Source: Egibacteraceae bacterium
Lineage (GTDB): Bacteria > Actinomycetota > Nitriliruptoria > Euzebyales > Egibacteraceae
DNA length: 46,156 nt
Reading direction: 5' to 3'
Assembly: GCA_035540635.1 (NCBI GenBank)
Contig: DATLGH010000110.1
Location: forward strand, 1 to 46,156
Shown: positions 3,685 to 34,797 of the stretch, piece by piece
Layout of the letters: the number at the start of each line of letters is the position of its first letter
How positions within the stretch are numbered: position 1 is the stretch's first letter
The notes under the pieces: model-generated
Told to the model about the DNA's origin: nothing
What the model saw: only the letters and a program-made list of their open reading frames with translations
Databases searched by the model: none
Translations under genes and position numbers: made by a program

Positions 3685-3755
3685 TGTCCCCGACACTGTG
3701 TCGGGACCTGCTAACTCGATGTTCCCCGCACTGTGTCCCGCGCTGCTAATTGGAC
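3685..3755. promoter_or_regulatory. Two ~32-bp direct repeats, each with a GACAC-N-GTGTC palindrome followed by CTGCTAAyT, upstream of the orphan hydrogenase-like gene
   Basis: Read directly: tgtccccgACACTGTGTCgggaccTGCTAActcga and ttccccgcACTGTGTCccgcgCTGCTAAttgga. An AT-richer stretch (cacgtattgag) follows. Confidence 0.35.
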
Positions 3756-3848
3756 ATTCCACGTATTGAGCAAGTCCGGTTTCCGCCCCACCATGCCGGT
3801 GAAACCGCCTCGACGTCCGTCGGGGTGACGACAGCGGAAGGACGCACG

Positions 3849-5570
3849 ATGGCGGCTGCGGCGCCCACTCCAACCCGGCCACTGACCACGCGGGAGGGCA
3901 GCGCGCGCGCTGGCCGGTCCACGATCCTCCACGACCCCGTGACCCGCGTGGGGGGAGGGCTCGGCGTCCGGGTCGAGACGCAGGGTTCCACGATCACCGA
4001 CGCGCACGTCTCGGGGACCTCGTTCCGGGGTTACGAGCCGATCCTGCTGGGACGCGACCCCCGCGACTTCCTCCCGCTCATCTCCCGTGCGTGCGGCTGG
4101 TGCGGCAGCATCCACCAGACGACCGCGTCGGTGGCCGAGGAGATGGCGTGGGGCCTGAGGCCGCCGCCGATGGCGCTCGCGCTGCGCGGGATCGCTCAGG
4201 CTACCGAGGCGATCTGGATCCACGCCGCGCACCTCGCCGTGCGGGCGGGGCCTGACTACTCCGCTCCGGTCGTGCGGAGGACCACCCCGTGGGTGTGGGA
4301 CCTCGCGAAACGCACCGAGGCGCCCGGGGCGGCGACGCACGGCTACAAGACCATCGCCGAGCTCATGGAGGAGCTGCGCTACTTCGAGGGCAAGTACTGG
4401 TGGAACACCATCCCGGCGGGCCGCAAGGTTCTCGAGATGATCAACCTCATGTACGGCAAGTACCCCCACCCGTCGGTGCTGAGCCCCGGCGGCGTCGGCT
4501 CCACCCTCACCGTGGGCAACTTCACCTACTACTACACCCGCCTCTACCAGTCGGTGGACTACGTCAAGCAGGTCATCGCCATCTGGGACGACCTCGTCGA
4601 CTTCCTCTACGCGGCCGACCCGCGATTCGCCGAACAGGGGGAGCGCCCCGCGAGCTTCATCCACGCGGGCGCCTGGGACCACGACGCCGCGAGCGGCTAC
4701 GACGGCAGCTGGGCCGGGCTGGACAACGACGGTCGCCGGCGCCTCGCTCCGCCGGGGGTCATGCTCGACGGTCGGCTCGCGACCGGTCGGCTGAGCGAGG
4801 TGAACGCCGGCGTCGAGGAGTCGGTTGCGCACTCCTTCTACAGCGGCTGGGAGTCGTCGGGGGGCACCGACCCGAGCGGAGGCGCGCTGTCCTCGGGGCA
4901 TCCGTGGAACAAGACGACCATCGCCGCGCCGGCACCGCGCGACTTCGCCGGCGCCTACTCCTGGTGCACCGCACCGCGCTGGCAGGGCAACGTCGTCGAG
5001 AGCACGCCACTCGGCCGTCTGTGGCTCACCGCGCAGCGGACGGACTTCCCGCCGAACGACTACATCGAGCCGACCGGCACGAGTGTCCGGATCCTCGTCC
5101 CGGAGAACTTCCTTCCCGAGACCATTGTCGAGTGGCACATCCCCAAGCGCGTCAACACCCTCGAGCGCCTGCGCGCCGACGCCTACGGGGTCGCGTTCTC
5201 GGGCCTCTGCGCGGCGCTCTGCGTGCTCGACGGTTTCACGCTCATGCGCCACCGCCGCACCGACGTGTCGCACGGCTTCACCGTCCCGAAGGGCGAGACG
5301 GCCGGCGTCGGACTGTTGGACTCCGGGCGTGGCATGAACGCCCACTACCTCCGGACGGACGGCAAGCGCCGGATCAGCACGATGCAGGTCGTCGGCCCGT
5401 CCACGTGGAACGCCTCGCCGCGCGACGCCACGGGCCAGCCCGGGCCGCTCGAGGAGGCGCTCATCGGCACGCCGATCATCGAGGAACCCGCAGACGGCCG
5501 CCTGACCGGTATCGACGCCATCCGAACCATTCACGGCTTTGATCCGTGTATGCACTGCGGCACGCACTAG
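3849..5570 (+). CDS. orphan [NiFe]-hydrogenase large-subunit paralog (no adjacent small subunit, no C-terminal extension)
   Basis: L1 motif RACGWCGSIHQ and L2 motif DPCMHCGTH, the latter immediately followed by the stop codon. About 40% identity to hhyL over the N-terminal ~200 aa by eye. Start ATG at 3849 with RBS GGAAGGA. Confidence 0.8.
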   Translation: MAAAAPTPTRPLTTREGSARAGRSTILHDPVTRVGGGLGVRVETQGSTITDAHVSGTSFRGYEPILLGRDPRDFLPLISRACGWCGSIHQTTASVAEEMAWGLRPPPMALALRGIAQATEAIWIHAAHLAVRAGPDYSAPVVRRTTPWVWDLAKRTEAPGAATHGYKTIAELMEELRYFEGKYWWNTIPAGRKVLEMINLMYGKYPHPSVLSPGGVGSTLTVGNFTYYYTRLYQSVDYVKQVIAIWDDLVDFLYAADPRFAEQGERPASFIHAGAWDHDAASGYDGSWAGLDNDGRRRLAPPGVMLDGRLATGRLSEVNAGVEESVAHSFYSGWESSGGTDPSGGALSSGHPWNKTTIAAPAPRDFAGAYSWCTAPRWQGNVVESTPLGRLWLTAQRTDFPPNDYIEPTGTSVRILVPENFLPETIVEWHIPKRVNTLERLRADAYGVAFSGLCAALCVLDGFTLMRHRRTDVSHGFTVPKGETAGVGLLDSGRGMNAHYLRTDGKRRISTMQVVGPSTWNASPRDATGQPGPLEEALIGTPIIEEPADGRLTGIDAIRTIHGFDPCMHCGTH

Positions 5571-6200: not shown

Positions 6201-6518
6201 ATGCGTCCCCTGCTCGTCGCCCTGACCGCCGCGGAGATCACCCTCGTCGTCGTCGTGCTCGCCGTGTACCTCCACAAGATCGCGGGATCGCTGCGGGCTA
6301 CCGCAGGGTTCCTCGGCAAGACGAACTTCGGCGTGCGCGCGATCGAGTCGCAGTGCGCCCCGATCGGGCCGGCGGTCACGAGGATCAACGCGCAGCTGGG
6401 CGTCATCTCGTCGGCGCTCGGCGGCCTCGCCGACCTCGCCGAGGGGCTTCCGACCCAGACCAACGGTCGGGACCCCAAGCACACCTCCTCCCGGAGAAGG
6501 AGAAAGAGCCGTGGCTGA
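6201..6518 (+). CDS. small single-pass membrane protein, family A (FGVRAI motif)
   Basis: TM helix followed by GKTNFGVRAIESQ..PIGPAV..INAQL. Paralogous to 9031..9273, 9542..9808 and 28117..28368. Confidence 0.6.
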   Translation: MRPLLVALTAAEITLVVVVLAVYLHKIAGSLRATAGFLGKTNFGVRAIESQCAPIGPAVTRINAQLGVISSALGGLADLAEGLPTQTNGRDPKHTSSRRRRKSRG

Positions 6519-6924
6519 ACTGCAGACCCCGAAGTCGGAGGCGCTGCGCGCCCTGTTCTGGAGGAGCGAGATCCTCCAGGTCATGTACTGGCTGCGGGGG
6601 GAGGGCCTCGGTGACGAGATCACCCCGCGGATGATGGAGCGCTTCCTCGGCGTGGGCGCGGAGGTCGGGGTCACCTACCTCAACCGGCTCGTCGAGGAGG
6701 GCTACCTCGACCGCACCGAGCGGGGGTTCACCCTGTCTCCCCGCGGTATCGAGGAGGGGGCGGCAGAGTTCGCGTCTTCGTTCGCCGAGCTCACCCGGCC
6801 CACCCACGGCGAGTGCAGCGCCGACTGCTGGTGCCACAACTCGCCGGAGGAGGCGGACGCCTGTGCCGCCGAGCGCGGCGCTCACAGCCACTCCCACGAT
6901 CACGACCACGACCACGACCACTGA
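6511..6924 (+). CDS. winged-helix protein with Cys4 plus His-rich (HSHSHDHDHDHDH) metal-binding tail
   Basis: GTG start with a strong RBS GGAGAAGGAG. The C-terminus reads HGECSADCWCHNSPEEADACAAERGAHSHSHDHDHDHDH. Confidence 0.6.
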   Translation: MAELQTPKSEALRALFWRSEILQVMYWLRGEGLGDEITPRMMERFLGVGAEVGVTYLNRLVEEGYLDRTERGFTLSPRGIEEGAAEFASSFAELTRPTHGECSADCWCHNSPEEADACAAERGAHSHSHDHDHDHDH

Positions 6925-6977
6925 GCCGCTGCGTCGCAGCGGCCCTGGAAGCCGAGCCGGACCCCGGGGAGCCCACC

Positions 6978-7358
6978 ATGTCCACCTCACGCATAGACGA
7001 CGCGCCGGGCGGCTTGCCCCGCAACTACCTGCGGCCCTGCCTGCTCCTCCTCCTCGGTGAGGGAGCCTCGCACGGCTACGAGCTGCTCGAGCAGGTGGGC
7101 GTCCTCGGGCTCGAGAAGGCCGACCCGGGTGGTCTCTACCGCACTCTGCGGGCCATGGAGCAGGAAGAGCTCGTGCGCTCGTGGTGGGAGCACTCCGAGT
7201 CGGGTCCCGCGCGGCGGACGTACGACCTCACGGAGGAGGGGCGTGACTGGCTCCACGCCTGGGCTGGATCCCTGCGTGAGGTGCACCGGCTGCTCGGGCT
7301 CTACCTCGACCGCTACGAGGCCCTGGTCGAGGGCTCGCACTCGACCCTCACGTCATGA
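6978..7358 (+). CDS. PadR-family transcriptional regulator
   Basis: LLLLLGEGASHGYELLEQ...GGLYRTLRAMEQEELV is a typical PadR winged helix. Confidence 0.8.
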   Translation: MSTSRIDDAPGGLPRNYLRPCLLLLLGEGASHGYELLEQVGVLGLEKADPGGLYRTLRAMEQEELVRSWWEHSESGPARRTYDLTEEGRDWLHAWAGSLREVHRLLGLYLDRYEALVEGSHSTLTS

Positions 7359-8128
7359 GGATCGCGCTCGCCGGCAAGGGCGGTGCCGGCAAGACGACGA
7401 CGTCGGCGACGCTGGCACGGCTTCTCGCCCTGGGCGGGACGCCCGTCGTCGCCATCGACGCCGACAGCAACCCCAACCTCTCCTTCGCCCTCGGCGTCCC
7501 GCGGGAGGAGGCGACGCAGGCCAGGGGCCTGCCGACCTCGCTCGTCTCCCGCCGCCTCGGTGGCCCGGGCCTGACCCAGTCGCTCGACACCGCCCTGGAC
7601 CGGCACGCGATCGTCGCGCCCGACGGGGTCCGCGTCCTGCTCATGGGGATGCCCGCGCACGCGGAGGAGGGATGCCTCTGCTCGGCGCACGCGACGGTCA
7701 GCGCGGTCCTCGAGGACCTCGGAACCCGGCAGGAGGTGGTGACGATCATGGACATGGAAGCGTCACCGGAGCACCTGAGCCGGGGCACCGCCCGCCACGT
7801 CGATCAGCTGCTGCTCATCACCGAGCCCTACTACCGGTCGCTGGAGACGGCGCGCAGGATGGCGGCCCTCGCCGCGGAGCTGCCGATCTCCCGCGTGGCC
7901 GTGGTCGGCAACAAGATCCGCTCTGAGGGCGACGCCGAGGCGATCGGCGCCTTCTCGGAGCGACACGGCCTCGAGGTGGCCGGTTACGTCCCGTGGAGCG
8001 ACGCCGTGACGGAGGCCGACGCGCAGGGCGTCCCCCTCGTCGAGCGCGACCCCGACGGTCCCGCTGTCCAGGCCATCGCCGAGCTCGCTCGGGGACTCGT
8101 CGCGTACCAGTTCCAGACGGCGGGTTAG
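7355..8128 (+). CDS. CooC/MinD-family P-loop ATPase (putative Ni-insertion accessory protein), paralog 1
   Basis: Deviant Walker A GKGGAGKTTT, DADSNPNL, and CxC motif GCLCSAHA. ATGA overlap with the PadR gene. Confidence 0.85.
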   Translation: MRIALAGKGGAGKTTTSATLARLLALGGTPVVAIDADSNPNLSFALGVPREEATQARGLPTSLVSRRLGGPGLTQSLDTALDRHAIVAPDGVRVLLMGMPAHAEEGCLCSAHATVSAVLEDLGTRQEVVTIMDMEASPEHLSRGTARHVDQLLLITEPYYRSLETARRMAALAAELPISRVAVVGNKIRSEGDAEAIGAFSERHGLEVAGYVPWSDAVTEADAQGVPLVERDPDGPAVQAIAELARGLVAYQFQTAG

Positions 8129-21717: not shown

Positions 21718-22212
21718 TCATGAGTTGCCCTGGAGCAGCTGGTCGAGCAGACGCCGGACCTCCGCGATCGCGACCTCCACCGCTCGGGCGACCGCCGGTG
21801 ACAGCCCGACCTCGAGCGTCTCCGTCTCCTGCGGCTGGCAGCCGACGAGCAGGAACCGCTCGGGCAGCACGCCCAGGGCCTTGGCGAGCATGAAGGCGCT
21901 TTCGGGCTTCGTGTAGTGCATGTCGGCGAGGAAGTCCCACCGGGCCAGCTGAGGGAGGTCGTCCACGTCGGCGACCTCCGGCTCGATGACCATCACGGTG
22001 CCCGGCGGGCGGCCGTGGTCGACCGCGTCGAGGACGATGAGCACGTCGGTCGGATCGTACAGGGCCGTCACGAGGTTGATCCCACCCGTGCCGGTCTCGA
22101 TCACCCGGACCGACTTACCGAGGTCGAGCGTTGCGAGACGGCGGGCGACCTCCACCCCGAACCCGTCGTCCCCCCGCAGCACCTGGCCGACACCGGCCAC
22201 GAGCACGTCCAT
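21718..22212 (-). CDS. hupD: hydrogenase maturation endopeptidase (HupD/HyaD/HybD family)
   Basis: Product MDVLVAGVGQVLRGDDGFGVEVARRL... is about 164 aa. Confidence 0.85.
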   Translation of the reverse strand: MDVLVAGVGQVLRGDDGFGVEVARRLATLDLGKSVRVIETGTGGINLVTALYDPTDVLIVLDAVDHGRPPGTVMVIEPEVADVDDLPQLARWDFLADMHYTKPESAFMLAKALGVLPERFLLVGCQPQETETLEVGLSPAVARAVEVAIAEVRRLLDQLLQGNS

Positions 22213-23057
22213 CAGCCGATGTCCCGCAGGGCGGCTCGGATCGCCTCCCGCCCCTCGTCGACACCCATGCGGACGAGCTCGGGAGTGTCGGCGCCGAGAC
22301 CGCTGACGAGCTGGTCGGCGACGTAGAAGCCCGTCCGCCACTGCTCGTCGACGAAGCCCGCCCCGAAGAACGCCTCCGTCGCGCCCTCCGCATCGAGCGC
22401 GTCCCTGAACGCGGTCATGAGGAAGTCCCGGTGCTCCTCGCACCACGGCAGCCAGTCCTCGAACCCCCCCACGCCGTACCAGAAGTAGTCGGCCGGCGGG
22501 CGGTCGGGCACCACTTCCCGCGACACCCGGATGGCGAGGCCCTCCGCGAAAGCCGTCCAGGCGAGGTCCTCGGGAGGCCGCGCGCCGAGGAGCGTCTCGT
22601 GCCACGCGTGGGTGTCCTCGTGTGCGACGAGCACCCGAGCCGGGTCGCGGCCCCCGAACCACTCCAGACAGTGGAGGACCGCCACGTCCCCGTCGACACG
22701 GGCGACGCACGCGTTCGTCGAGAACGTGCCGACCATGAGGACGTGGAGCGGCTCGGGCAGGTCATCCAGGCCGAGTGCGTCGCGGACCGCCGGCTCGACC
22801 TCCTCGATGAGCCCGGGCATCACCGGAGCCGCCTGCTCGACCGTCCGGCGGACGTCGGACAGCTTGTGGGTCACCGCGGGCACCTGCTCGGGGTCGCCGT
22901 AGGTCGCGAAGTAGGCGGCGAAGACCTCGGGATGACGTGCGCGGTAGCGCTCCTCCCACAGCACGCCCCGGGTCACGCGATCTTTGAGGAAAGCCGCCCG
23001 GGCGAGGGCTACGAAGTCTGGGGTGGTGTCGAGGATGCGCGCCACGTCGACAGCCAC
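22212..23057 (-). CDS. hypothetical protein with an HExxH motif (AHEDTHAWHE), a putative metallopeptidase-like protein
   Basis: ORF upstream of hupD on the same strand. Confidence 0.5.
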   Translation of the reverse strand: MAVDVARILDTTPDFVALARAAFLKDRVTRGVLWEERYRARHPEVFAAYFATYGDPEQVPAVTHKLSDVRRTVEQAAPVMPGLIEEVEPAVRDALGLDDLPEPLHVLMVGTFSTNACVARVDGDVAVLHCLEWFGGRDPARVLVAHEDTHAWHETLLGARPPEDLAWTAFAEGLAIRVSREVVPDRPPADYFWYGVGGFEDWLPWCEEHRDFLMTAFRDALDAEGATEAFFGAGFVDEQWRTGFYVADQLVSGLGADTPELVRMGVDEGREAIRAALRDIG

Positions 23058-27902: not shown

Positions 27903-28076
27903 CTACGTCGTTCTCGCTTCGTCGGCCGCGTAGTCGATGAGCGTCTGCGTGAGCACGACGCCGTGCTTCTCGCGCGCATGCGCGGCCACCTGCGCGAGCA
28001 GGTCCTCCACGGTCGCGGCTCGGTGGACGGCCCCGCAGGCCACCCCCACGTCGGCGCAGGCGAGTTGGACGGCCAT
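27903..28076 (-). CDS. DUF1059-like small protein (57 aa), Cys-containing form
   Basis: Not in the ORF track because it is under the length cut-off. RBS GGGAG precedes the start. Product is MAVQLACADVGVACGAVHRAATVEDLLAQVAAHAREKHGVVLTQTLIDYAADEARTT. Confidence 0.6.
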   Translation of the reverse strand: MAVQLACADVGVACGAVHRAATVEDLLAQVAAHAREKHGVVLTQTLIDYAADEARTT

Positions 28077-28802: not shown

Positions 28803-29576
28803 ATGAAGCTCGGAATCGTCGGGAAGGGCGGGGTAGGCAAGACGACCGTGTCCGCCCTCATCTCGCAGGCCTACGCCGCGCGCGGCGCCCGCGTCGTTGC
28901 CATCGACACCGACTCCAACCCCAACCTCGGCATGTCGCTCGGCATGGACTGGGACGAGATGGAGGCCGTGCCGGTCATGCCCCGTGCCCTGATCGTCGGC
29001 AGCGAGGGAGACCTGACGGCCCAGGAGGTGATCGAGAAGTACGGTCGCCCCACACCGGCCGGCCCGGTCCTCCTCTCGGCCATCCGCGTCACCCAGGCGG
29101 GCTCCGGCTGCACCTGCTCCGGCCACGCGACGGTGCGCAACTTCCTCGGCGAGGTGCTCGCGGAGGAGGCCGACGTGACGCTCATCGACATGGAGGCCGG
29201 CCTCGAGCACCTGAGCCGCTCCGGCGGCACCCTCGCGTACGCCGACGTCCTGCTCGTCGTGATGGAGCCGAGCCGCAAGTCGGTCATCACCGCTGCGCGC
29301 ACCCTCGCCCTCGCCGAGGAGCTCGGCATCCCCAGGGTGTACGGCCTCGGCAACAAGGCCCGCATGCCCGAGGACGCCGAGTTCTTCGCCGAGTTGGCTG
29401 CGGAGTACAACGTCCCCCTCGCGGGGGTCATCCCCCTCGATCCCGCCGTGGCCGACGCCGACCGGGCGGGGTCCGCGGTGACCGCCACACCCCCCGAGGC
29501 GGTGCGTGCGGCGCTCGACGCCGTCATCGACCTCATCGAGGGCTCCTCAGTGAGCGACCAGGCCCCCGTGCGCTGA
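28803..29576 (+). CDS. CooC/MinD-family P-loop ATPase, paralog 2
   Basis: Walker A GKGGVGKTT, DTDSNPNL, and CxC motif GCTCSGHA. Confidence 0.85.
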   Translation: MKLGIVGKGGVGKTTVSALISQAYAARGARVVAIDTDSNPNLGMSLGMDWDEMEAVPVMPRALIVGSEGDLTAQEVIEKYGRPTPAGPVLLSAIRVTQAGSGCTCSGHATVRNFLGEVLAEEADVTLIDMEAGLEHLSRSGGTLAYADVLLVVMEPSRKSVITAARTLALAEELGIPRVYGLGNKARMPEDAEFFAELAAEYNVPLAGVIPLDPAVADADRAGSAVTATPPEAVRAALDAVIDLIEGSSVSDQAPVR

Positions 29577-29599
29577 CCCCCACGGGGGGCGGGCGAAGT

Positions 29600-29645
29600 T
29601 TTTTTCGCCAACCCGGTTGACATTCAACCTGGATGCAGGGTCTAC
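29600..29645 (+). promoter_or_regulatory. Putative MerR-type promoter (TTGACA, 19-bp spacer with imperfect dyad ACCTGGATGCAGGGT, then CTACCT)
   Basis: Read directly from the sequence. Lies immediately upstream of the merR-like gene. Confidence 0.35.
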
Positions 29646-29654
29646 CTTGGGGGC

Positions 29655-30101
29655 ATGACCCGCCTCACCGTCTCCAAGCTCGCTGAACGCGTCGGCAGCA
29701 CGCCGTCCGCGCTGCGCTACTACGAGCGCATCGGCCTGCTGCCCGCCCCCCGGCGGAGCGCCGGGGGCTACCGGCTCTACGACGAGACCGCCGAGGAGCG
29801 CGTGCGGTTCATCAAACGGGCCCAGCGCTTCGGCCTGCGCCTCGACGAGATCAGTGACCTCCTGTCCATCCGCGAGCGCGGGCAGTGTCCGTGCGGGCAC
29901 ACCCGCGACCTCCTCGCGGGGCGCCTCGCGGAGATCGACGAGGAGATGGCCGGCCTCGCCCGGCTGCGCCAGGACATCGAGCGCATGGTCGAGGACCTGC
30001 CGTCCAGCGAGGACCGCGCCGACTGGGCCTGCGGCGGCGAGCTCGTCACGCTGACCCGCCGCCCCCCCGATCACCACGCCAACACCAACCTTGAAGCCTG
30101 A
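29655..30101 (+). CDS. MerR-family transcriptional regulator
   Basis: Contains LTVSKLAERVGSTPSALRYYERIGLL and candidate Cys metal ligands (CPCGH, WACGG). Confidence 0.85.
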   Translation: MTRLTVSKLAERVGSTPSALRYYERIGLLPAPRRSAGGYRLYDETAEERVRFIKRAQRFGLRLDEISDLLSIRERGQCPCGHTRDLLAGRLAEIDEEMAGLARLRQDIERMVEDLPSSEDRADWACGGELVTLTRRPPDHHANTNLEA

Positions 30102-30126
30102 TGAGAGACGAGAAAGGACACCGACC

Positions 30127-30423
30127 ATGAGCACCACCGACACCGGCTGCCAGTGTGGCTGCAGCACGATGACCGTCGTCACGGAGGCGGCCGAGCCCTG
30201 CGGCTGCGGCTGCGAGTGCTGCGCCGCCGTCCCACAGAGCGCCCAGGAGGAGATCACCCAGCTGCGTCAGCTTCGCGAGAACGTCGAGCAGCGCCTGCAG
30301 ACGCTCCAGGCGAGCGGCGAAGGCGCCGCCGCGGCATGCGGCTGCGGCTGCGGCAGCGCGAGCAGCTCCGGCCCGGCCGAACCGTGCGCCTGCGGCTGCG
30401 ACTGCTGCCAGGTCGCTTCCTGA
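30127..30423 (+). CDS. Cys-rich metallothionein-like protein (CxCxC clusters flanking a coiled segment)
   Basis: Product MSTTDTGCQCGCSTM...CGCGCECCAAV...CGCGCGS...CACGCDCCQVAS. Confidence 0.55.
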   Translation: MSTTDTGCQCGCSTMTVVTEAAEPCGCGCECCAAVPQSAQEEITQLRQLRENVEQRLQTLQASGEGAAAACGCGCGSASSSGPAEPCACGCDCCQVAS

Positions 30424-30481
30424 CCCGGCCGGCTCGGCCGGCAGCCGTCGGAGGACCGACCTCCCCGCCCTGCTGCCTCAG

Positions 30482-31219
30482 CTAGGACGCGGGGAGGAGG
30501 TCCTCGGCGAGCGCCGCGAGCGCCGCCACGGCCGGCGCGTCGGGGTCGAGGTCAAGGGGCGCGATCCCCTTGCGGTCGGCCTCGACGATCACCGGGTCGT
30601 CGGGCACACCCACGACCTCCACCCCGGGCGGAAAGGCCGCACGGATCCGCTCGAGGTCGTCCTCGCCCCGGATGCGGTTGGCGAGGACCACCGTGCGCAT
30701 CGCCGCGCGCTCCCCCGCGAGCTCGGCGGCACGGGCGCCGACCTCGAGCGACTTCGACATCGCCTCGACGACGATGACGACCACGTCGACGGCGTTCTCC
30801 GCCAGGCGCGTGAGCGTGCCGATCCCCGCCTCGCAGTCCGCGATGACCACCGATGCGCCGAACTCCCCGGACCCGAGCAACTGCTCGGGTGAGAGCCCGC
30901 ATCAGGGACAGCCCGGCTCCGGGTTCTCGATACGCGAGACGACGGCGAGCCGCACGTTGTCCGGCGCGTCGGAGCCGAAGCGGTCCATGAGCTCGGCCCA
31001 GCCAGGGGCGTGCTCCTCCTCGCCTTCGGCGAGCGCCTGACGCATCGCGTCGAGCCGCTCGGTCTCCGTGTCACCGATGCCCAGCGAGATGCCGAGGTTC
31101 GGGTTGCTGTCGCAGTCGAGCGCGACCACCCCGCGGCCCTGGCGGCCGATGGTGCGCGCCAGCACGGCCGACGTCGTCGTCTTGCCAGAGCCGCCCTTGC
31201 CGACGACCGCGATCTTCAT
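30482..31219 (-). CDS. CooC/MinD-family ATPase interrupted by one in-frame TGA (30902-30904) inside its CxC metal motif (candidate selenoprotein; otherwise a nonsense pseudogene)
   Basis: The N-terminal part (31219->30905) reads MKIAVVGKGGSGKTTTSAV...ENPEPGCP, then TGA, then CGLSPEQLLGSGEFGASVVIADCEAG... (30901->30482) in the same frame. The total is 239 aa, the normal family length. The TGA lies in the motif aligned to GCLCS and GCTCS of the paralogs. Confidence 0.5.
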
Positions 31220-31974
31220 GCGCCTGCCTCCTCAGCACGGAGCCGTTCCACCAGCAAGTCTATCGCCTTGACCGCCGGTGAGTCCGGGGCCTCCTCGATC
31301 GGGGGACGGCCTTTCCGGTCCGCTTCGGCGAGCTCCTCGTCGAGCGGCACGGCACCGACGACCTCAAGGCCCGTGCGGTCCTGCACCCGCTCGACGTCAC
31401 CGTCCTCGCAGACCTTGTTCACGACCGCCACGACCCGCGGCGCGTCCTCGGCCAGCGCGAGGCGCGCCAGGCGCTTCGCGCTGAGGATCGACTTCGCCAT
31501 CGGCTCCACCACCACGAGGATGGTGCGGGCGTAGCGACCCCAGCCGAGAAACGGCTGGCGGGTGCCCCCGGGGAGGTCGCCGACGATGTTCCACTTGTCG
31601 TCGGGCAGCTGGGCGGTGATCTGGCGGAACGCGAACTGCGAGCGAATGAGCCCGCGCCCGGAGTCGCGGATCTTGCCGAACTGCAGGACGCGCACACCGT
31701 CGGGCCCGCGCACGGCGTAGCGCTCGACGGCGTCGGCGGCCGTGAGCTCCCCGGCCAGCACGTACCGGGGGCCGGCCTCCGCCGGGTTCTCGACCACCGC
31801 CTCGTCGGGGATCCCGGCGTCGGTGGTCTCGACGCCGAGCGAGTAGGCCAGGCCGGGAAGCGGGTCGGAGTCGACGACGAGCACCGGCTCCCCACGTCGG
31901 GCGAGGAGGCGGGCGAACGTCCCCGCGATCGCGGACTTGCCGGCTCCGCCCTTGCCTACGAATGCAACGCGCAT
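31216..31974 (-). CDS. CooC/MinD-family P-loop ATPase, paralog 3 (no CxC motif)
   Basis: Walker A GKGGAGKS and DSDPLPGL. ATGA overlap with the downstream paralog. Confidence 0.8.
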   Translation of the reverse strand: MRVAFVGKGGAGKSAIAGTFARLLARRGEPVLVVDSDPLPGLAYSLGVETTDAGIPDEAVVENPAEAGPRYVLAGELTAADAVERYAVRGPDGVRVLQFGKIRDSGRGLIRSQFAFRQITAQLPDDKWNIVGDLPGGTRQPFLGWGRYARTILVVVEPMAKSILSAKRLARLALAEDAPRVVAVVNKVCEDGDVERVQDRTGLEVVGAVPLDEELAEADRKGRPPIEEAPDSPAVKAIDLLVERLRAEEAGA

Positions 31975-32047
31975 CCGGCTACCGTATCCGGTCGGTGAGC
32001 AGGGCGGTAACAGCCCGGGCGCGCGCTGCTCCTATCATGGCGGGCAG

Positions 32048-34315
32048 ATGGCCACACGTGTGCGCACCCGCGTCCGGGTCGACGGCATCGTCCAGGGCGT
32101 GGGCTTCCGTCCCTTCGTGCACTCGCTCGCGACGCGGTGGCACCTGGCGGGGCTGGTCGGCAACGACACGCGTGGGGTGTTCATCGAGGTCGAGGGCGCG
32201 CCGGAGCACGTTGCGGACTTCGTCTCCGCGCTCGACCGGGAGGCGCCGCCGCTGGCCGTCGTCGAACGCGTGGAGACGGAGCCGGTGCCCCTGCGGGGGG
32301 AGCGCGGCTTCGTCATCGTCGACAGCGCCACGGGCGGGCGCCGCGACACGCTCGTGTCGCCCGACACCGCGACGTGCGCCGACTGCCTCGCCGAGATGGC
32401 CGATCCCGCCGATCGCCGTCACCGCTACCCGTTCACGAACTGCACGAACTGCGGGCCCCGCTTCACGATCGTGCGGGACGTGCCCTACGACCGGCCGAAC
32501 ACCACCATGTCGGCCTTCCCGATGTGCGCCGACTGCGCCGCGGAGTACGACGACCCCGCCGACCGCCGCTTCCACGCCCAGCCGGTGTGCTGCCCGGCCT
32601 GCGGTCCGGCGCTGTCCCTGCTCGACGCCGGCTACGAGCCGGTCGAGGGCGACCCGATCACCGCGACCGCGTCGCTGCTGCGGGCCGGGCGCGTCGTCGC
32701 CGTGAAGGGCCTCGGTGGCTACCACCTCGCCGCGGTCGCCGCCGACGAGGACGCGGTCGCCGCTCTGCGTGACCGCAAGCACCGCGAGGACAAGCCGTTC
32801 GCGGTGATGGTCACCGACGTCGCGGCTGCCCGTGCCCTGTGCACGGTGACCCCCGCAGAGGAGGCGCTGCTCACGAGCACCCGTCGTCCCGCCGTCCTCC
32901 TGCGGCGCCGCCCGGACGCGCCCGTCGCCGCGGCGGTCGCGCCCGGCAACCGCCACCTCGGCCTCATGCTGCCCTACACGCCACTGCACCACCTGCTCGC
33001 CGCAGAGGTCCGCGAGCCGTTCGTCCTGACGAGCGGCAACGTCTCCGACGAGCCGATCGCCTACCGCGACGGGGACGCCCGGGAGCGCCTGTCTCCCATC
33101 GCCGACGGGTTCCTCGTGCACGACCGACCCATCCACATCCGCACGGACGACTCGGTCACGCGGGTGTTCCGCGAGCGCGAGCTCGTCATCAGGCGCTCGC
33201 GCGGGTACGTGCCCCGGCCCATCACGCTTGCCGCGCCCGCCCGCCGCCCGGTCCTGGCCTGCGGCGCCGAGCTGAAGAACACTTTCTGCCTCGCCCGCGG
33301 ACGGCACGCGTTCGTGTCCCACCACATCGGCGACCTCGAGAACTACGAGACGCTGCGGTCGTTCGTGGACGGCATCGCGCACTTCAGCCGCCTGTTCGAC
33401 ATCGTCCCGGAGCTCGTCGCCCACGACCTCCACCCCGAGTACCTGTCCACCAAGTACGCCCTCGACCTGCCCGACGCGGAGCTGCTCGGTGTCCAGCACC
33501 ATCACGCCCACATCGCGTCGTGCCTCGCGGACAACGGGCACCCGGGACCGGTGATCGGGGTGGCCTTCGACGGGCTCGGCTACGGCACCGACGCCACGCT
33601 GTGGGGGGGCGAGGTGCTCGTCTGCGATCTCCACGGCTTCGACCGGGCGGCGCACCTCGCGACCCTGCCGATGCCCGGAGGGGCGAAGGCCATCAGGGAG
33701 CCCTGGAGGATGGCGGCGTCCTACCTCGACGCCGCCGGCCTCGCGGCCGAGCACCACGACGTCGCCCAGCGCAACGCCGAGTGGTGGGATCGCGTGCTCG
33801 CCGTCGCGCGGTCCGGTGTCTCGGCCCCGCTCACCTCGAGCGCGGGGCGCCTGTTCGACGCGGTGGCGGCGCTGCTCGGGGTCCGCGACCGGGTCCACTA
33901 CGAGGGGCAGGCGGCGGTCGAGCTCGAGCAGCGCGCAGACCCGGCCGAGCGAGGGGCCTATCCCGTCACCCTCGACGCCGGCGCCCCGCTGCGGGTGCGG
34001 ACCACCGACCTCGTGCGGGCCGTCGTCGCCGACCAACGGGCCGGCACCGATGTCGCGGTCGTCGCGGCCCGCTTCCACAACAGCCTCGCGGCAACCGTCG
34101 CCGAGGTGTGCGCGAGGGTGCGCGAGCAGACGGGCATCGGCACGGTGGCGCTGTCGGGAGGCGTCTGGCAGAACCTGCGCCTGCTCGGCAGCACGGTGGA
34201 CGGGCTCGAGGCGCGTGGGCTCGCCGTGCTGCTCCACCGCCAAGTGCCCCCGAACGACGGTGGGATCAGCCTTGGCCAGGCTGCGGTCGCCGCAGCCGCC
34301 GACCGCAGGGATTGA
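32048..34315 (+). CDS. hypF: carbamoyltransferase HypF
   Basis: Acylphosphatase N-terminus (VRVDGIVQGVGFRPFV), two CxxC...CxxC zinc fingers, YrdC-like and Kae1-like regions. About 755 aa. Confidence 0.9.
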   Translation: MATRVRTRVRVDGIVQGVGFRPFVHSLATRWHLAGLVGNDTRGVFIEVEGAPEHVADFVSALDREAPPLAVVERVETEPVPLRGERGFVIVDSATGGRRDTLVSPDTATCADCLAEMADPADRRHRYPFTNCTNCGPRFTIVRDVPYDRPNTTMSAFPMCADCAAEYDDPADRRFHAQPVCCPACGPALSLLDAGYEPVEGDPITATASLLRAGRVVAVKGLGGYHLAAVAADEDAVAALRDRKHREDKPFAVMVTDVAAARALCTVTPAEEALLTSTRRPAVLLRRRPDAPVAAAVAPGNRHLGLMLPYTPLHHLLAAEVREPFVLTSGNVSDEPIAYRDGDARERLSPIADGFLVHDRPIHIRTDDSVTRVFRERELVIRRSRGYVPRPITLAAPARRPVLACGAELKNTFCLARGRHAFVSHHIGDLENYETLRSFVDGIAHFSRLFDIVPELVAHDLHPEYLSTKYALDLPDAELLGVQHHHAHIASCLADNGHPGPVIGVAFDGLGYGTDATLWGGEVLVCDLHGFDRAAHLATLPMPGGAKAIREPWRMAASYLDAAGLAAEHHDVAQRNAEWWDRVLAVARSGVSAPLTSSAGRLFDAVAALLGVRDRVHYEGQAAVELEQRADPAERGAYPVTLDAGAPLRVRTTDLVRAVVADQRAGTDVAVVAARFHNSLAATVAEVCARVREQTGIGTVALSGGVWQNLRLLGSTVDGLEARGLAVLLHRQVPPNDGGISLGQAAVAAAADRRD

Positions 34316-34386: not shown

Positions 34387-34797
34387 ATGCGACAAGCCGA
34401 GGACACCCGGGCGCAGACGCAGCGGCGTCTTGCCACCCCGGGTGACTCCGACAGTGCCCAACCGAAGAACTTCCTCCAGGCGTGCCTCCTGCTGCTTCTG
34501 CGAGAGGCCCCTTCCCACGGGTACGCGCTCATCGAGCGTCTCGAGGAGATGGGCAGCCGGCGGGACCGCGGCGTCGTCTACCGCACCCTGCGGTTCCTCG
34601 AACGTGAAGGCCTGGTGCAATCCGCCTGGGAGGACTCCCACTCCGGACCGGCCAAGCGCAGCTATGCCCTGACGCCGTACGGTGAGGAGATGCTGTCCGC
34701 ATGGGCGGAGTCGCTCCGCAGCAGCGCGCGCATGCTCGGTGAGTACCTCGAGCGTTACCACAAGGCCACGAAGGGGACCTCCGAGCAGGCGCGTTAG
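34387..34797 (+). CDS. PadR-family transcriptional regulator
   Basis: Contains LLLLLREAPSHGYALIERL...VYRTLRFLEREGLV. Confidence 0.8.
   Translation: MRQAEDTRAQTQRRLATPGDSDSAQPKNFLQACLLLLLREAPSHGYALIERLEEMGSRRDRGVVYRTLRFLEREGLVQSAWEDSHSGPAKRSYALTPYGEEMLSAWAESLRSSARMLGEYLERYHKATKGTSEQAR

What the first reader, a model, noticed from the sequence alone, without database searches (positions are those of the whole stretch)
29600..30423. MerR-type regulator with a putative autoregulated promoter, followed by a Cys-rich metallothionein-like mini-protein
The promoter has TTGACA, a 19-bp spacer with a dyad, and a -10-like element. merR lies directly downstream, followed by an approximately 99-aa protein with four CxCxC/CC clusters around a coiled segment. 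It looks like a metal (Ni, Cu or Zn) buffering or sensing module embedded between CooC-like genes.
Basis: partly seen in the sequence, partly recalled or inferred. Interest (0 to 1): 0.55.

Follow-up and report, generated by a model that had tools for sequence, protein, structure and literature searches.

The report
MerR-controlled cysteine-cluster metal-binding mini-protein operon
A metal-sensor-type regulator gene and a tiny, very cysteine-rich gene form one self-controlled two-gene unit, and the small protein belongs to an unannotated family that sits behind this special kind of promoter in all 30 related loci examined; it is probably a new kind of bacterial metal-sequestering protein, though metal binding is untested.

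Summary
There is a TTGACA -35 (29617-22), a 20-nt spacer (not 19), a TACCTT -10 (29643-48), and the merR ATG 6 nt later, so the mRNA is leaderless. merR (148 aa) is followed after 25 nt by a 98-aa ORF with 16 Cys. That ORF is two CxCxC...CxCxCxCC modules flanking a confidently predicted helix.

The promoter architecture is unique in the window and conserved in every MerR+Cys locus found. In relatives the dyad is near-perfect and resembles E. coli PzntA; in the window it is degenerate.

The Cys-rich ORF is a real, conserved gene:
- 138 clusters in 1.84 billion proteins, all from Actinomycetota/Acidimicrobiia metagenomes.
- Eight invariant Cys, with a coding-type substitution pattern.
- No match to Pfam, NCBIfam or PDB, and none to SmtA/BmtA or MymT.

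All 30 distinct family loci have a long-spacer, dyad-containing MerR-type promoter, either before a cis merR (10 loci) or directly before the Cys gene (20 loci).

The regulator has a rearranged three-Cys site (C78, C80, C126). Linkage to CooC/hydrogenase genes is seen only in close relatives.

Best reading: an autoregulated thiophilic-metal sensor driving a new metallothionein-like protein. The metal is unknown.

Side finding: the neighbouring CooC-like gene carries a conserved in-frame TGA with a SECIS-like hairpin, so it is probably a selenoprotein.

The parts
29592..29609 (+). GC-rich hairpin with an internal U-run (GGCGAAG-UUUU-UUUCGCC) just after the upstream CooC-like gene. It may insulate the merR unit from upstream transcription.
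   Evidence: Fold: -21 kcal/mol for 29574-29616, z = -1.97, so support is weak.
29617..29622 (+). -35 hexamer TTGACA
   Evidence: It aligns with TTGAC(C/A) in 8 of the 9 other MerR+Cys loci (L034 has CTTGCC) and in close relatives L036 and L037.
29623..29642 (+). 20-nt spacer carrying the degenerate MerR-type operator dyad (TTCAACCTGGATGCAGGGTC)
   Evidence: The 20-nt spacer length is conserved in all the homologous promoters that were aligned. The dyad is perfect in L037 and near-perfect in L017, L021 and L025, but weak in the window (my base-by-base reading).
29643..29648 (+). -10 element TACCTT (TANNNT)
   Evidence: In the 8 MerR+Cys loci whose merR start aligns with the window's, the -10 lies 6-7 nt before the merR start codon, which implies a leaderless mRNA. 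In L007 and L034 the same spacing holds to an in-frame upstream ATG.
29655..30101 (+). MerR-family regulator of the metal-sensor type, 148 aa. The predicted sensory cysteines are C78 and C80 (nt 29886-29894) and C126 (nt 30030-30032).
   Evidence: Pfam and NCBIfam matches. Closest solved structures are Bacillus MerR 4ua1, PbrR 5gpe, Tn501 MerR 5crl and CadR 6jgf, and C80 aligns with their N-terminal metal-binding Cys. The CPC and WxCG motifs are kept in 8 of 10 orthologues (L007 has CSC; L034 has a lone Cys without the W/G), and the three Cys themselves in all 10. The protein is 100% identical to an NCBI 'heavy metal-responsive transcriptional regulator [Egibacteraceae bacterium]'.
30112..30118 (+). 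Shine-Dalgarno sequence GAAAGGA for the Cys-rich gene, in a 25-nt unstructured intergenic gap
   Evidence: Sequence. The gap has no secondary structure (third fold), so the two genes are probably co-transcribed. Homologues carry comparable SD sequences.
30127..30423 (+). Cys-rich mini-protein gene, 98 aa with 16 Cys. Module 1 is nt 30148-30222 (CxCxC-12-CxCxCxCC), the helix is nt 30241-30336, and module 2 is nt 30337-30408 (CxCxC-11-CxCxCxCC).
   Evidence: Homologues, alignments, AlphaFold2, and the same exact protein found on an independent contig, L035. The second module keeps the EPCxCGCxCC motif in frame, which marks it as an internal duplication.
30425..30512 (.). Two strong GC-rich hairpins between the convergent Cys-rich gene and the CooC-like gene, probably a bidirectional terminator
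   Evidence: -62.6 kcal/mol, z = -4.25, and 0 of 200 shuffles fold as well. There is no U-tract, and the simple scanner finds no canonical terminator.

Best explanation
This is a self-contained, positively autoregulated metal-stress unit. The proposed mechanism has four steps, all inferred by analogy with MerR, ZntR and CueR; none has been shown for this system.

1. A MerR-family dimer sits on the dyad inside an over-long, 20-nt-spacer promoter.
2. A thiophilic metal ion is bound by three cysteines. C78 and C80 lie at the start of the dimerisation helix of one subunit, and C126 comes from the C-terminal loop of the other.
3. The bound regulator then untwists the promoter, and RNA polymerase makes a leaderless bicistronic mRNA: merR plus the Cys-rich gene.
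4. The 98-aa product has two unstructured CxCxC...CxCxCxCC modules held on a central amphipathic helix that probably self-associates. It sequesters or buffers the metal in thiolate clusters, as a metallothionein does, and this lowers the signal again.

The most likely ligands are divalent soft metals of the Zn/Cd/Pb type. This is suggested by the canonical N-terminal Cys and the PzntA-like operator of orthologues. Cu(I), Hg(II) and Ni(II) are not excluded.

Shown here: gene structures, conservation, promoter architecture, gene linkage, and lack of homology to known metallothioneins. Inferred: metal binding, metal identity, activation mechanism and oligomerisation.
For: Regulator
- It has the MerR wHTH and dimerisation helix.
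- Its best NCBIfam matches are MerR, ZntR, CadR/PbrR and CueR. Its best PDB matches are Hg-MerR, PbrR and CadR, and C80 aligns with their metal-ligand Cys.
- C78, C80 and C126 are conserved in all 10 orthologues.

Promoter
- The composite motif is unique in the window and absent from 100 shuffles.
- The 20-nt spacer, the TANNNT -10 and a start codon 6-7 nt after the -10 are conserved in 10 loci (for L007 and L034 this uses the upstream in-frame ATG). The close relatives L036 and L037 show the same layout.
- The orthologous promoter in L017 is 26/33 identical to E. coli PzntA, with the same geometry. The PzntA sequence was verified upstream of zntA.

Cys-rich protein
- The family is conserved, with eight invariant Cys that show TGC/TGT synonymous variation. 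Per-site divergence at codon positions 1, 2 and 3 is 0.32, 0.25 and 0.45.
- The protein has no aromatic residues or His and is 16% Cys (sequence).
- The Cys segments are predicted disordered and the helix confident.
- Close relatives keep a Cys-cluster ORF after merR even though its linker and helix differ completely. That fits selection acting on the cysteine clusters rather than on a fold.

Linkage
- merR lies directly upstream of a family gene in 10 of 30 distinct family loci.
- Apparent MerR::Cys-rich fusions exist (P0134, P0141).
- The other 20 loci all have a MerR-type long-spacer promoter directly before the Cys gene: 19 carry a second kind of dyad, ACCYGGCCC-N3-GGGCCRGGT, and L019 carries the same TTGGAG-type dyad as the merR-linked loci.

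Operon boundaries
- There is no structure between the two genes, and strong hairpins follow the second gene.

Precedent
- The MerR-type regulator CadR activates a small Cys-rich, metallothionein-like gene, zrd, in P. aeruginosa (PMC12301328).
Against: - There is no experimental or expression data of any kind.
- The window's own operator dyad is degenerate, so regulation here could be weakened.
- The regulator scores well below the curated cut-offs of every named metal-sensor equivalog. For example, MerR scores 92 against a cut-off of 151, and ZntR 89 against 168.
- It lacks the canonical pair of Cys in the C-terminal loop, so its ligand could be something other than a metal.
- The Cys-rich family matches no metallothionein model.
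- Some homologues lie next to MsrB or a peroxidase, which would equally fit a redox role.
- No metal transporter is linked to the pair in any locus examined.
Confidence: 0.6

Rival explanations
1. This is a thiol or redox stress module rather than a metal module. In this reading the three cysteines of the regulator sense oxidants or electrophiles by forming disulfides or adducts. The Cys-rich protein then serves as a sacrificial or reversible thiol buffer.
For: In a group of related loci the family gene lies within 2-3 kb of methionine sulfoxide reductase MsrB. In L006 it lies directly after a haem peroxidase/LysM gene. Redox- and electrophile-sensing members of the MerR family are known (SoxR and NmlR, which appear among the weaker hits).
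Against: C80 aligns exactly with the metal-ligand Cys of MerR, PbrR and CadR. Matches to the metal-sensor models are far stronger than those to NmlR or SoxR: 92-72 bits against 43-52 bits. The MsrB neighbourhood belongs to one set of closely related contigs, so it counts as roughly one observation. It is absent from the window and from the loci where merR directly precedes the Cys gene.
Confidence: 0.15
2. This is a nickel (or other cofactor-metal) supply or buffering protein serving the neighbouring CooC-like NTPases and [NiFe]-hydrogenase maturation. Its expression would be controlled by a metal-sensing MerR.
For: The pair lies between CooC-like genes and next to hypF, inside a [NiFe]-hydrogenase/hyp cluster. 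This placement is kept in two related contigs. From memory, CxCGC resembles the CxC nickel site of CooC and the CxxCGC high-affinity nickel site of E. coli HypB. Two other gene families are found next to Cys-rich genes in other genomes and also occur in this window's hydrogenase cluster. One is a 280-aa HExxH protein and the other a wHTH protein with CxxxCWC, which here has a His/Asp-rich tail.
Against: None of the other 29 family loci contains CooC or hyp genes near the Cys-rich gene. The contigs that share the synteny are close relatives (MerR 77-81% identical), so the shared gene order may simply be inherited. To my knowledge no nickel-sensing MerR regulator is known.
Confidence: 0.1
3. The small protein is mainly a partner or modulator of the regulator, for example a metal-loaded co-sensor or an anti-activator, rather than a bulk metal sink.
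For: Reading-frame fusions of MerR to the Cys-rich domain occur in two clusters (P0134, P0141), and one was verified on its contig. The two genes overlap or abut in several loci. The helix could mediate protein-protein contact.
Against: The fused ORF on L040 still contains the internal Shine-Dalgarno sequence and ATG of a separate gene, so the fusions may be recent stop-codon losses or assembly errors. Two thirds of family members have no adjacent merR. Close relatives lack the helix altogether.
Confidence: 0.08
4. The Cys-rich ORF is the precursor of a ribosomally made, post-translationally modified peptide.
For: It is a small Cys-rich peptide. In one sub-clade a B12-binding radical SAM gene lies convergent to the MerR-Cys-PadR operon. 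In another group an HExxH protein lies directly upstream.
Against: No modifying enzyme, protease or exporter recurs across the family, and none is present in the window. The whole length is conserved, including a C-terminal helix, with no leader/core pattern. The family is uniformly placed behind MerR-type promoters.
Confidence: 0.03

Closest known systems
ZntR and the zntA promoter of E. coli (a Zn/Cd/Pb-responsive MerR-family activator)
   Same: Same protein family and the same promoter logic: a 20-nt spacer with the dyad centred in it. The orthologous promoter in L017 shares 26 of 33 bases with PzntA, including the core TGGAGTCGACTCCA. The regulator has a Cys at the start of the dimerisation helix, as divalent-metal sensors do.
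   Different: It scores 89 bits against the ZntR cut-off of 168. It lacks the C114/C115/H119/C124 loop ligands (numbering from memory) and has an extra C78 plus a single loop Cys, C126. It controls its own gene and a sequestering protein, not an efflux ATPase. The transcript is leaderless. The window's own operator has diverged from the ZntR-like consensus.
MerR of Gram-positive mer operons (Bacillus RC607 MerR, PDB 4ua1)
   Same: This is the best solved-structure match (5.9e-20). It uses a three-thiolate site built across the dimer. From memory, merR is likewise the first gene of the operon it regulates.
   Different: The Cys arrangement is 2+1 (C78, C80 | C126) rather than 1+2 (C79 | C114, C123). 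No merA, merT or merP genes are present. The score is below the MerR equivalog cut-off, 92 against 151.
CadR-zrd of Pseudomonas aeruginosa (PMC12301328)
   Same: A MerR-family metal sensor activates a small Cys-rich protein that the authors liken to a metallothionein.
   Different: Zrd is a zinc-ribbon protein predicted to have two mononuclear Cys4 sites. The protein here has CxCxC/CC runs, no predicted fold around them, and a coiled helix. The two are not homologous, and here the effector gene shares an operon with its regulator.
Bacterial metallothioneins SmtA/BmtA (with the regulator SmtB) and MymT (with RicR)
   Same: These are small, Cys-rich proteins without aromatic residues, carrying CxC-type motifs, and paired with a dedicated metal-responsive regulator.
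   Different: There is no sequence relationship. The regulator class also differs: MerR here, against ArsR/SmtB or CsoR-type there. The central helix and the modular duplication have no counterpart.

Membership tests
MerR family, metal-sensing branch (MerR/ZntR/CadR/PbrR/CueR) | N-terminal winged helix-turn-helix of MerR type followed by a long dimerisation helix | tested here: met
   PF13411 2.5e-17, PF00376 6.3e-16, PF09278 1.6e-16.
MerR family, metal-sensing branch (MerR/ZntR/CadR/PbrR/CueR) | Cys at the N-terminal end of the dimerisation helix, the ligand typical of divalent-metal sensors | tested here: met
   C80 aligns with the corresponding Cys of Bacillus MerR, PbrR and CadR and is conserved in 10 of 10 orthologues.
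MerR family, metal-sensing branch (MerR/ZntR/CadR/PbrR/CueR) | Two ligand residues (Cys-Cys) in the C-terminal metal-binding loop | tested here: not met
   Only one conserved Cys, C126 in the WxCG motif, follows the helix. A second Cys, C78, sits next to C80 instead.
MerR family, metal-sensing branch (MerR/ZntR/CadR/PbrR/CueR) | Target promoter with a 19-20 nt spacer containing an inverted repeat | tested here: met
   The 20-nt spacer is unique in the window. The dyad is strong in orthologous loci but degenerate in the window.
MerR family, metal-sensing branch (MerR/ZntR/CadR/PbrR/CueR) | Score above the curated cut-off of a named equivalog (MerR, ZntR, CadR-PbrR or CueR) | tested here: not met
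   Scores against cut-offs: 92.4 vs 150.85, 88.8 vs 167.95, 76.8 vs 151.45 and 72.0 vs 147.4. It is a member of the branch but not of any named subfamily.
MerR family, metal-sensing branch (MerR/ZntR/CadR/PbrR/CueR) | Metal-dependent activation of transcription | not testable with these tools
   This needs in vitro transcription or reporter assays.
Bacterial metallothionein BmtA/SmtA (Pfam PF02069) | Match to the family profile, which includes the zinc-finger-like fold with His ligands | tested here: not met
   No hit at E <= 1 in Pfam. The protein contains no His. Pairwise BLAST gives only 8/26 identities at E = 0.04 for the single comparison.
Mycobacterial metallothionein MymT | Sequence similarity to MymT | tested here: not met
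There is no NCBIfam hit.
Metallothioneins in the broad, functional sense | Small size, high Cys content in CxC/CC motifs, and few or no aromatic residues | tested here: met
   98 aa, 16 Cys (16%), and no Phe, Tyr, Trp or His. The motifs are CxCxC and CxCxCxCC.
Metallothioneins in the broad, functional sense | Binds several metal ions in thiolate clusters | not testable with these tools
   This needs metal titration and mass spectrometry of the purified protein.
RiPP precursor peptide | Consistent co-location with modifying enzymes, a protease and/or an exporter | tested here: not met
   Clustering of neighbouring genes across 32 loci found no such recurring family. A radical SAM gene is nearby in only one sub-clade.

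The most novel reading that the evidence does not exclude
This would be a previously undescribed, lineage-restricted class of metallothionein. Disordered CxCxC...CxCxCxCC modules are displayed on a self-associating helix, so the metal-thiolate cluster would be built between chains. The number of modules evolves freely: one in most members, two in the window, and three or four clusters, or no helix at all, in some relatives. The whole family would be hard-wired to MerR-type distortion promoters, served by a sensor with a rearranged 2+1 cysteine site. In the window's lineage it might also feed or buffer metal for an adjacent selenocysteine-containing CooC-like maturase.
Probability: 0.25. Interest if true: 0.6.

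Novelty: new variant of a known kind. Interest (0 to 1): 0.45.

Why it matters
- Few bacterial metallothionein families are known (SmtA/BmtA, MymT and the Pseudomonas forms), and none has been described for Acidimicrobiia or Nitriliruptoria. A new, easily recognised family would widen that picture and would come with its own regulator and promoter.
- It could also provide a compact sensor-plus-sink part for biosensing or bioremediation.
- The regulator's three-Cys site, with two ligands moved to the helix start, is a natural variant that could show how MerR-family sites set metal selectivity.
- The family-wide coupling to long-spacer promoters gives a clean, testable regulon signature.
- None of this overturns current understanding. 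It extends a known theme.

Tried and rejected
- Standard promoter and terminator scan of 29300-30700: nothing found. This was expected, because the spacer lies outside the scanner's 16-18 nt range and the hairpins lack U-tracts.
- Rfam and tRNA scans of the whole window: nothing found.
- Pfam and NCBIfam on the Cys-rich protein: only sub-threshold helix matches, DUF883 and the sll1863 family.
- PDB profile search: only non-significant coiled-coil hits.
- Search of the window for the second operator type, TTGACNNGGCCCNNNGGGCC: hits were at chance level, so that operator is not used here.
- Synteny test of all window genes against 34 related loci:
  - Only merR, the Cys gene, the HExxH protein and the wHTH protein recur.
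  - CooC and hyp genes do not recur, so I rejected a general hydrogenase link.
- Literature searches for MerR plus metallothionein in actinobacteria, and for a selenocysteine-containing CooC: no description of this family or of a Sec-CooC turned up. One apparent CooC hit was the word 'cooccurrence'.
- The 280-aa HExxH neighbour family and the wHTH family gave no Pfam or NCBIfam assignment. I did not pursue their structures.
- One look-up returned no DNA because the sample file was too large.
Full report
**Setting**

The window has 71% G+C. It carries a [NiFe]-hydrogenase large subunit (3750-5570), hypD, hypE, CoxD/CoxE-like genes and hypF (31937-34315). It also has four CooC/MinD-like P-loop genes. 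The regulator in the finding is 100% identical to an NCBI protein named 'heavy metal-responsive transcriptional regulator [Egibacteraceae bacterium]'. The window therefore comes from a metagenome-assembled actinobacterium of that group.

**Observation**

Reading the sequence gives this layout:
- TTGACA at 29617-29622, followed by a 20-nt spacer.
- TACCTT at 29643-29648, then six bases, then the ATG of a 148-aa MerR-family gene (29655-30101).
- A 25-nt gap containing GAAAGGA.
- A 98-aa ORF at 30127-30423.

Comparison with relatives favours TANNNT and 20 nt. The composite pattern TTGAC-N21-TANNNT-N6-RTG occurs once in the window and in none of 100 shuffles. A conventional sigma-70 scan, which allows only 16-18 nt spacers, finds nothing, as expected for a MerR-type promoter.

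The small protein has 16 cysteines arranged as C8-x-C-x-C12, C25-x-C-x-C-x-C-C32, C71-x-C-x-C75 and C87-x-C-x-C-x-C-C94. It contains no aromatic residues and no histidine. AlphaFold2 with 22 sequences predicts one confident helix (residues 39-70, pLDDT about 95). It places the cysteine segments at low confidence, as expected for metal-free cluster-forming regions.

There is no RNA structure between the two genes. Two strong hairpins follow the second gene (z = -4.25). The two genes therefore look like one transcription unit.

**Is the regulator what it seems?**

It has the MerR wHTH and the dimerisation helix. Its best curated-model matches are MerR, ZntR, CadR/PbrR and CueR, but all are far below the equivalog cut-offs. 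The closest solved structures are Hg-MerR from Bacillus (4ua1), PbrR (5gpe), Tn501 MerR (5crl) and CadR.

In those alignments C80 falls on the cysteine at the start of the dimerisation helix. From established knowledge of the family, this cysteine marks sensors of divalent soft metals and is contributed to the site by the other subunit. The usual pair of loop cysteines is missing. Instead there is an additional C78 (motif C-P-C) and a single loop cysteine, C126 (W-x-C-G). All three Cys are conserved in ten orthologues.

I read this as a three-thiolate site with the ligands redistributed 2+1 instead of 1+2. That is an inference, not a demonstration.

**Is the promoter real?**

I aligned the regions upstream of merR in ten loci where merR directly precedes a family member. 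The shared layout is a TTGAC(C/A) -35 (CTTGCC in L034), a 20-nt spacer, TANNNT, and a start codon 6-7 nt later (an in-frame upstream ATG in L007 and L034). This conserved layout implies a leaderless mRNA. Most of these loci carry the dyad TTGGAG-N4-CTCCAA.

The promoter of L017 (CTTGACCTTGGAGTCGACTCCAACCCTTATCCT) matches E. coli PzntA at 26 of 33 positions with identical geometry. I confirmed the PzntA sequence and its position in front of zntA.

Among the window's closest relatives, L037 has a perfect palindrome, CCTTGAAC-N4-GTTCAAGG, in the same place. L036, L007 and the window are progressively degenerate. In the window only about half of the pairs survive at the canonical centre. What supports it is homology, not the window's own symmetry.

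**Is the Cys-rich ORF a gene?**

- A word-indexed search found 48 relatives, all unannotated and 53-78 aa except one 152-aa ORF with a long N-terminal extension. They cover residues 1-62 of the query.
- A full profile search of 1.84 billion representatives found 138 clusters.
- A scan of 185,579 species genomes found 24 loci, all in Acidimicrobiales/Actinomycetota metagenome-assembled genomes.
- The family consensus is CxCGCxxMTxVTxAxEPCGCGCECC, a short linker, then EIAELxxLRxSVDxRLxEL.
- Across 28 distinct genes the eight cysteine columns are invariant, with TGC/TGT synonymous variation. Divergence per site is 0.32, 0.25 and 0.45 at codon positions 1, 2 and 3.
- Most members have a Shine-Dalgarno sequence.

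The window's protein is the only family member in these searches with a second, C-terminal Cys module after the helix. That module repeats the EPCxCGCxCC motif in frame and differs from module 1 at 4 of 30 nucleotides in its core. It is therefore an internal duplication, not read-through noise. The exact protein also occurs on an independent short contig.

Other members vary the number of modules (P0116, P0125, P0141). In the two closest relatives of the window, with 81% and 77% identical regulators and the same gene order, the ORF after merR has four Cys clusters (CQCGCG, CGCGCG, CGCG, CTCGCC) and no helix at all. The clusters and the position are kept while everything between them changes. 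That is how metal-thiolate proteins tend to evolve, and it argues that the cysteines are the function.

**Linkage and regulation across the family**

Of 30 distinct family loci, 10 have merR immediately upstream. In one sub-clade the operon continues into a PadR-type gene. In L007 and L025 it continues into a wHTH gene with a CxxxCWC motif. Two clusters are apparent MerR::Cys-rich fusions. I checked one on its contig and found that the internal ribosome-binding site and ATG persist, so I give the fusions little weight.

The other 20 loci lack a neighbouring merR and sit in at least three unrelated contexts:
- after a 280-aa HExxH protein near msrB;
- after glmU-ctc-pth;
- after a peroxidase gene.

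All 20 nevertheless have a long-spacer promoter directly in front of the Cys gene. In 19 it carries a second kind of dyad, TTGACC-YGGCCC-N3-GGGCCRGGTTT-TANNNT, and the gene is often leaderless. In L019 it carries the same TTGGAG-type dyad as the merR-linked loci.

So every family member examined sits behind a MerR-type promoter, whatever its neighbours. This is the strongest single argument that the family is a stress-inducible effector of MerR-type sensors. The second operator type is absent from the window.

**Link to CooC and hydrogenase genes**

The pair lies between CooC-like genes only in the window and its two close relatives. No other locus has CooC or hyp genes nearby.

Two observations keep a nickel reading alive at low probability. 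Homologues of the HExxH protein (22212-23057, minus strand) and of the wHTH/CxxxCWC protein (6511-6924, here with a His/Asp-rich tail) lie inside this window's hydrogenase cluster. Also, from memory, CxCGC is reminiscent of the CooC CxC and HypB CxxCGC nickel sites.

**Comparison with known systems**

The unit works like a ZntR/MerR-type switch coupled to a sequestering protein. The closest functional precedent I found is CadR activating the small Cys-rich gene zrd in Pseudomonas aeruginosa (PMC12301328).

It is not a member of the SmtA/BmtA or MymT families, and it has no solved relative. The regulator belongs to the metal-sensing branch of the MerR family but to none of its named subfamilies, and it fails the two-loop-cysteine criterion.

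**Verdict**

It remains a prediction as far as metal binding, metal identity and inducibility are concerned.

I rate it as a new variant of a known kind: a new, unannotated metallothionein-like family with a dedicated MerR-type sensor carrying a rearranged site. Interest is moderate.

**Side observation**

The convergent CooC-like gene (31219-30485, minus strand) reads G-C-P-TGA-C-G.
- The TGA aligns with the second Cys of the CxC motif of its paralogues.
- It also aligns with the middle Cys of PGCPCCG, which is present in 117 of 120 full-length homologues.
- The TGA is conserved in both related contigs, with a neighbouring P-to-L change.
- It is followed by a long hairpin (z = -3.55). The hairpin is kept with wobble changes in the TGA-bearing genes and is absent from a Cys-bearing homologue.

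This is the classic signature of a selenocysteine codon. I found no report of a selenoprotein of this family.

Noticed in passing
window 30485-31219, minus strand (TGA at 30904-30902; hairpin about 30905-30850): The CooC/MinD-like NTPase gene has an in-frame TGA in its metal-binding motif (G-C-P-TGA-C-G). 117 of 120 full-length homologues have PGCPCCG at this position. The TGA is conserved in two related contigs (L036, L037). It is followed by a stable hairpin (z = -3.55) that a Cys-bearing homologue lacks. This is probably a selenocysteine-containing CooC-like protein. Gene callers split it into 105-aa and 132-aa ORFs.
   Followed up: partly
window 7355-8128 (+), 28803-29576 (+), 30485-31219 (-), 31216-31974 (-): Four CooC/MinD-like P-loop paralogues lie in one [NiFe]-hydrogenase/hyp cluster. 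Two have a GCxC motif, one has CP(Sec)C, and one (31216-31974) has no Cys at that site. That is an unusual number of such NTPases for a hydrogenase cluster.
   Followed up: partly
window 6511-6924 (+): A 137-aa winged-helix protein with a GECSADCWC motif and a C-terminal HSHSHDHDHDHDH tail lies shortly downstream of the hydrogenase large-subunit gene. Homologues follow the MerR+Cys-rich pair in L007 and L025, and one cluster (P0143) appears to fuse this domain to Cys/helix elements. It has no Pfam or NCBIfam assignment.
   Followed up: partly
window 22212-23057 (-): A 281-aa protein with an HExxH motif and no Pfam or NCBIfam match. Its homologues lie directly upstream of the Cys-rich gene in 11 distinct loci elsewhere, near msrB and GrdB-like genes. 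The functional link is unknown.
   Followed up: partly
loci L001, L004, L006, L008, L014, L016, L018, L020, L022-L024, L026-L033 (not in the window): A second conserved MerR-type promoter, TTGACC-YGGCCC-N3-GGGCCRGGTTT-TANNNT with a 20-nt spacer, sits directly before Cys-rich family genes that have no neighbouring merR. Its regulator has not been identified. No copy was found in the window.
   Followed up: partly
L036:1258-1494 and L037:1287-1532: In the window's closest relatives, the gene after merR encodes a 78-81 aa protein with four Cys clusters separated by low-complexity linkers and no helix. The sequence-based family search did not detect it. The family is therefore probably larger than the 138 clusters counted.
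   Followed up: no
window 27903-28076 (-) and about 34445-34797 (+): A small DUF1059 protein (3.6e-11) and a PadR-like ORF downstream of hypF. The latter is related to the PadR gene that ends the MerR-Cys-PadR operons of L041-L046. A second PadR-like ORF overlaps 6813-7358.
   Followed up: no
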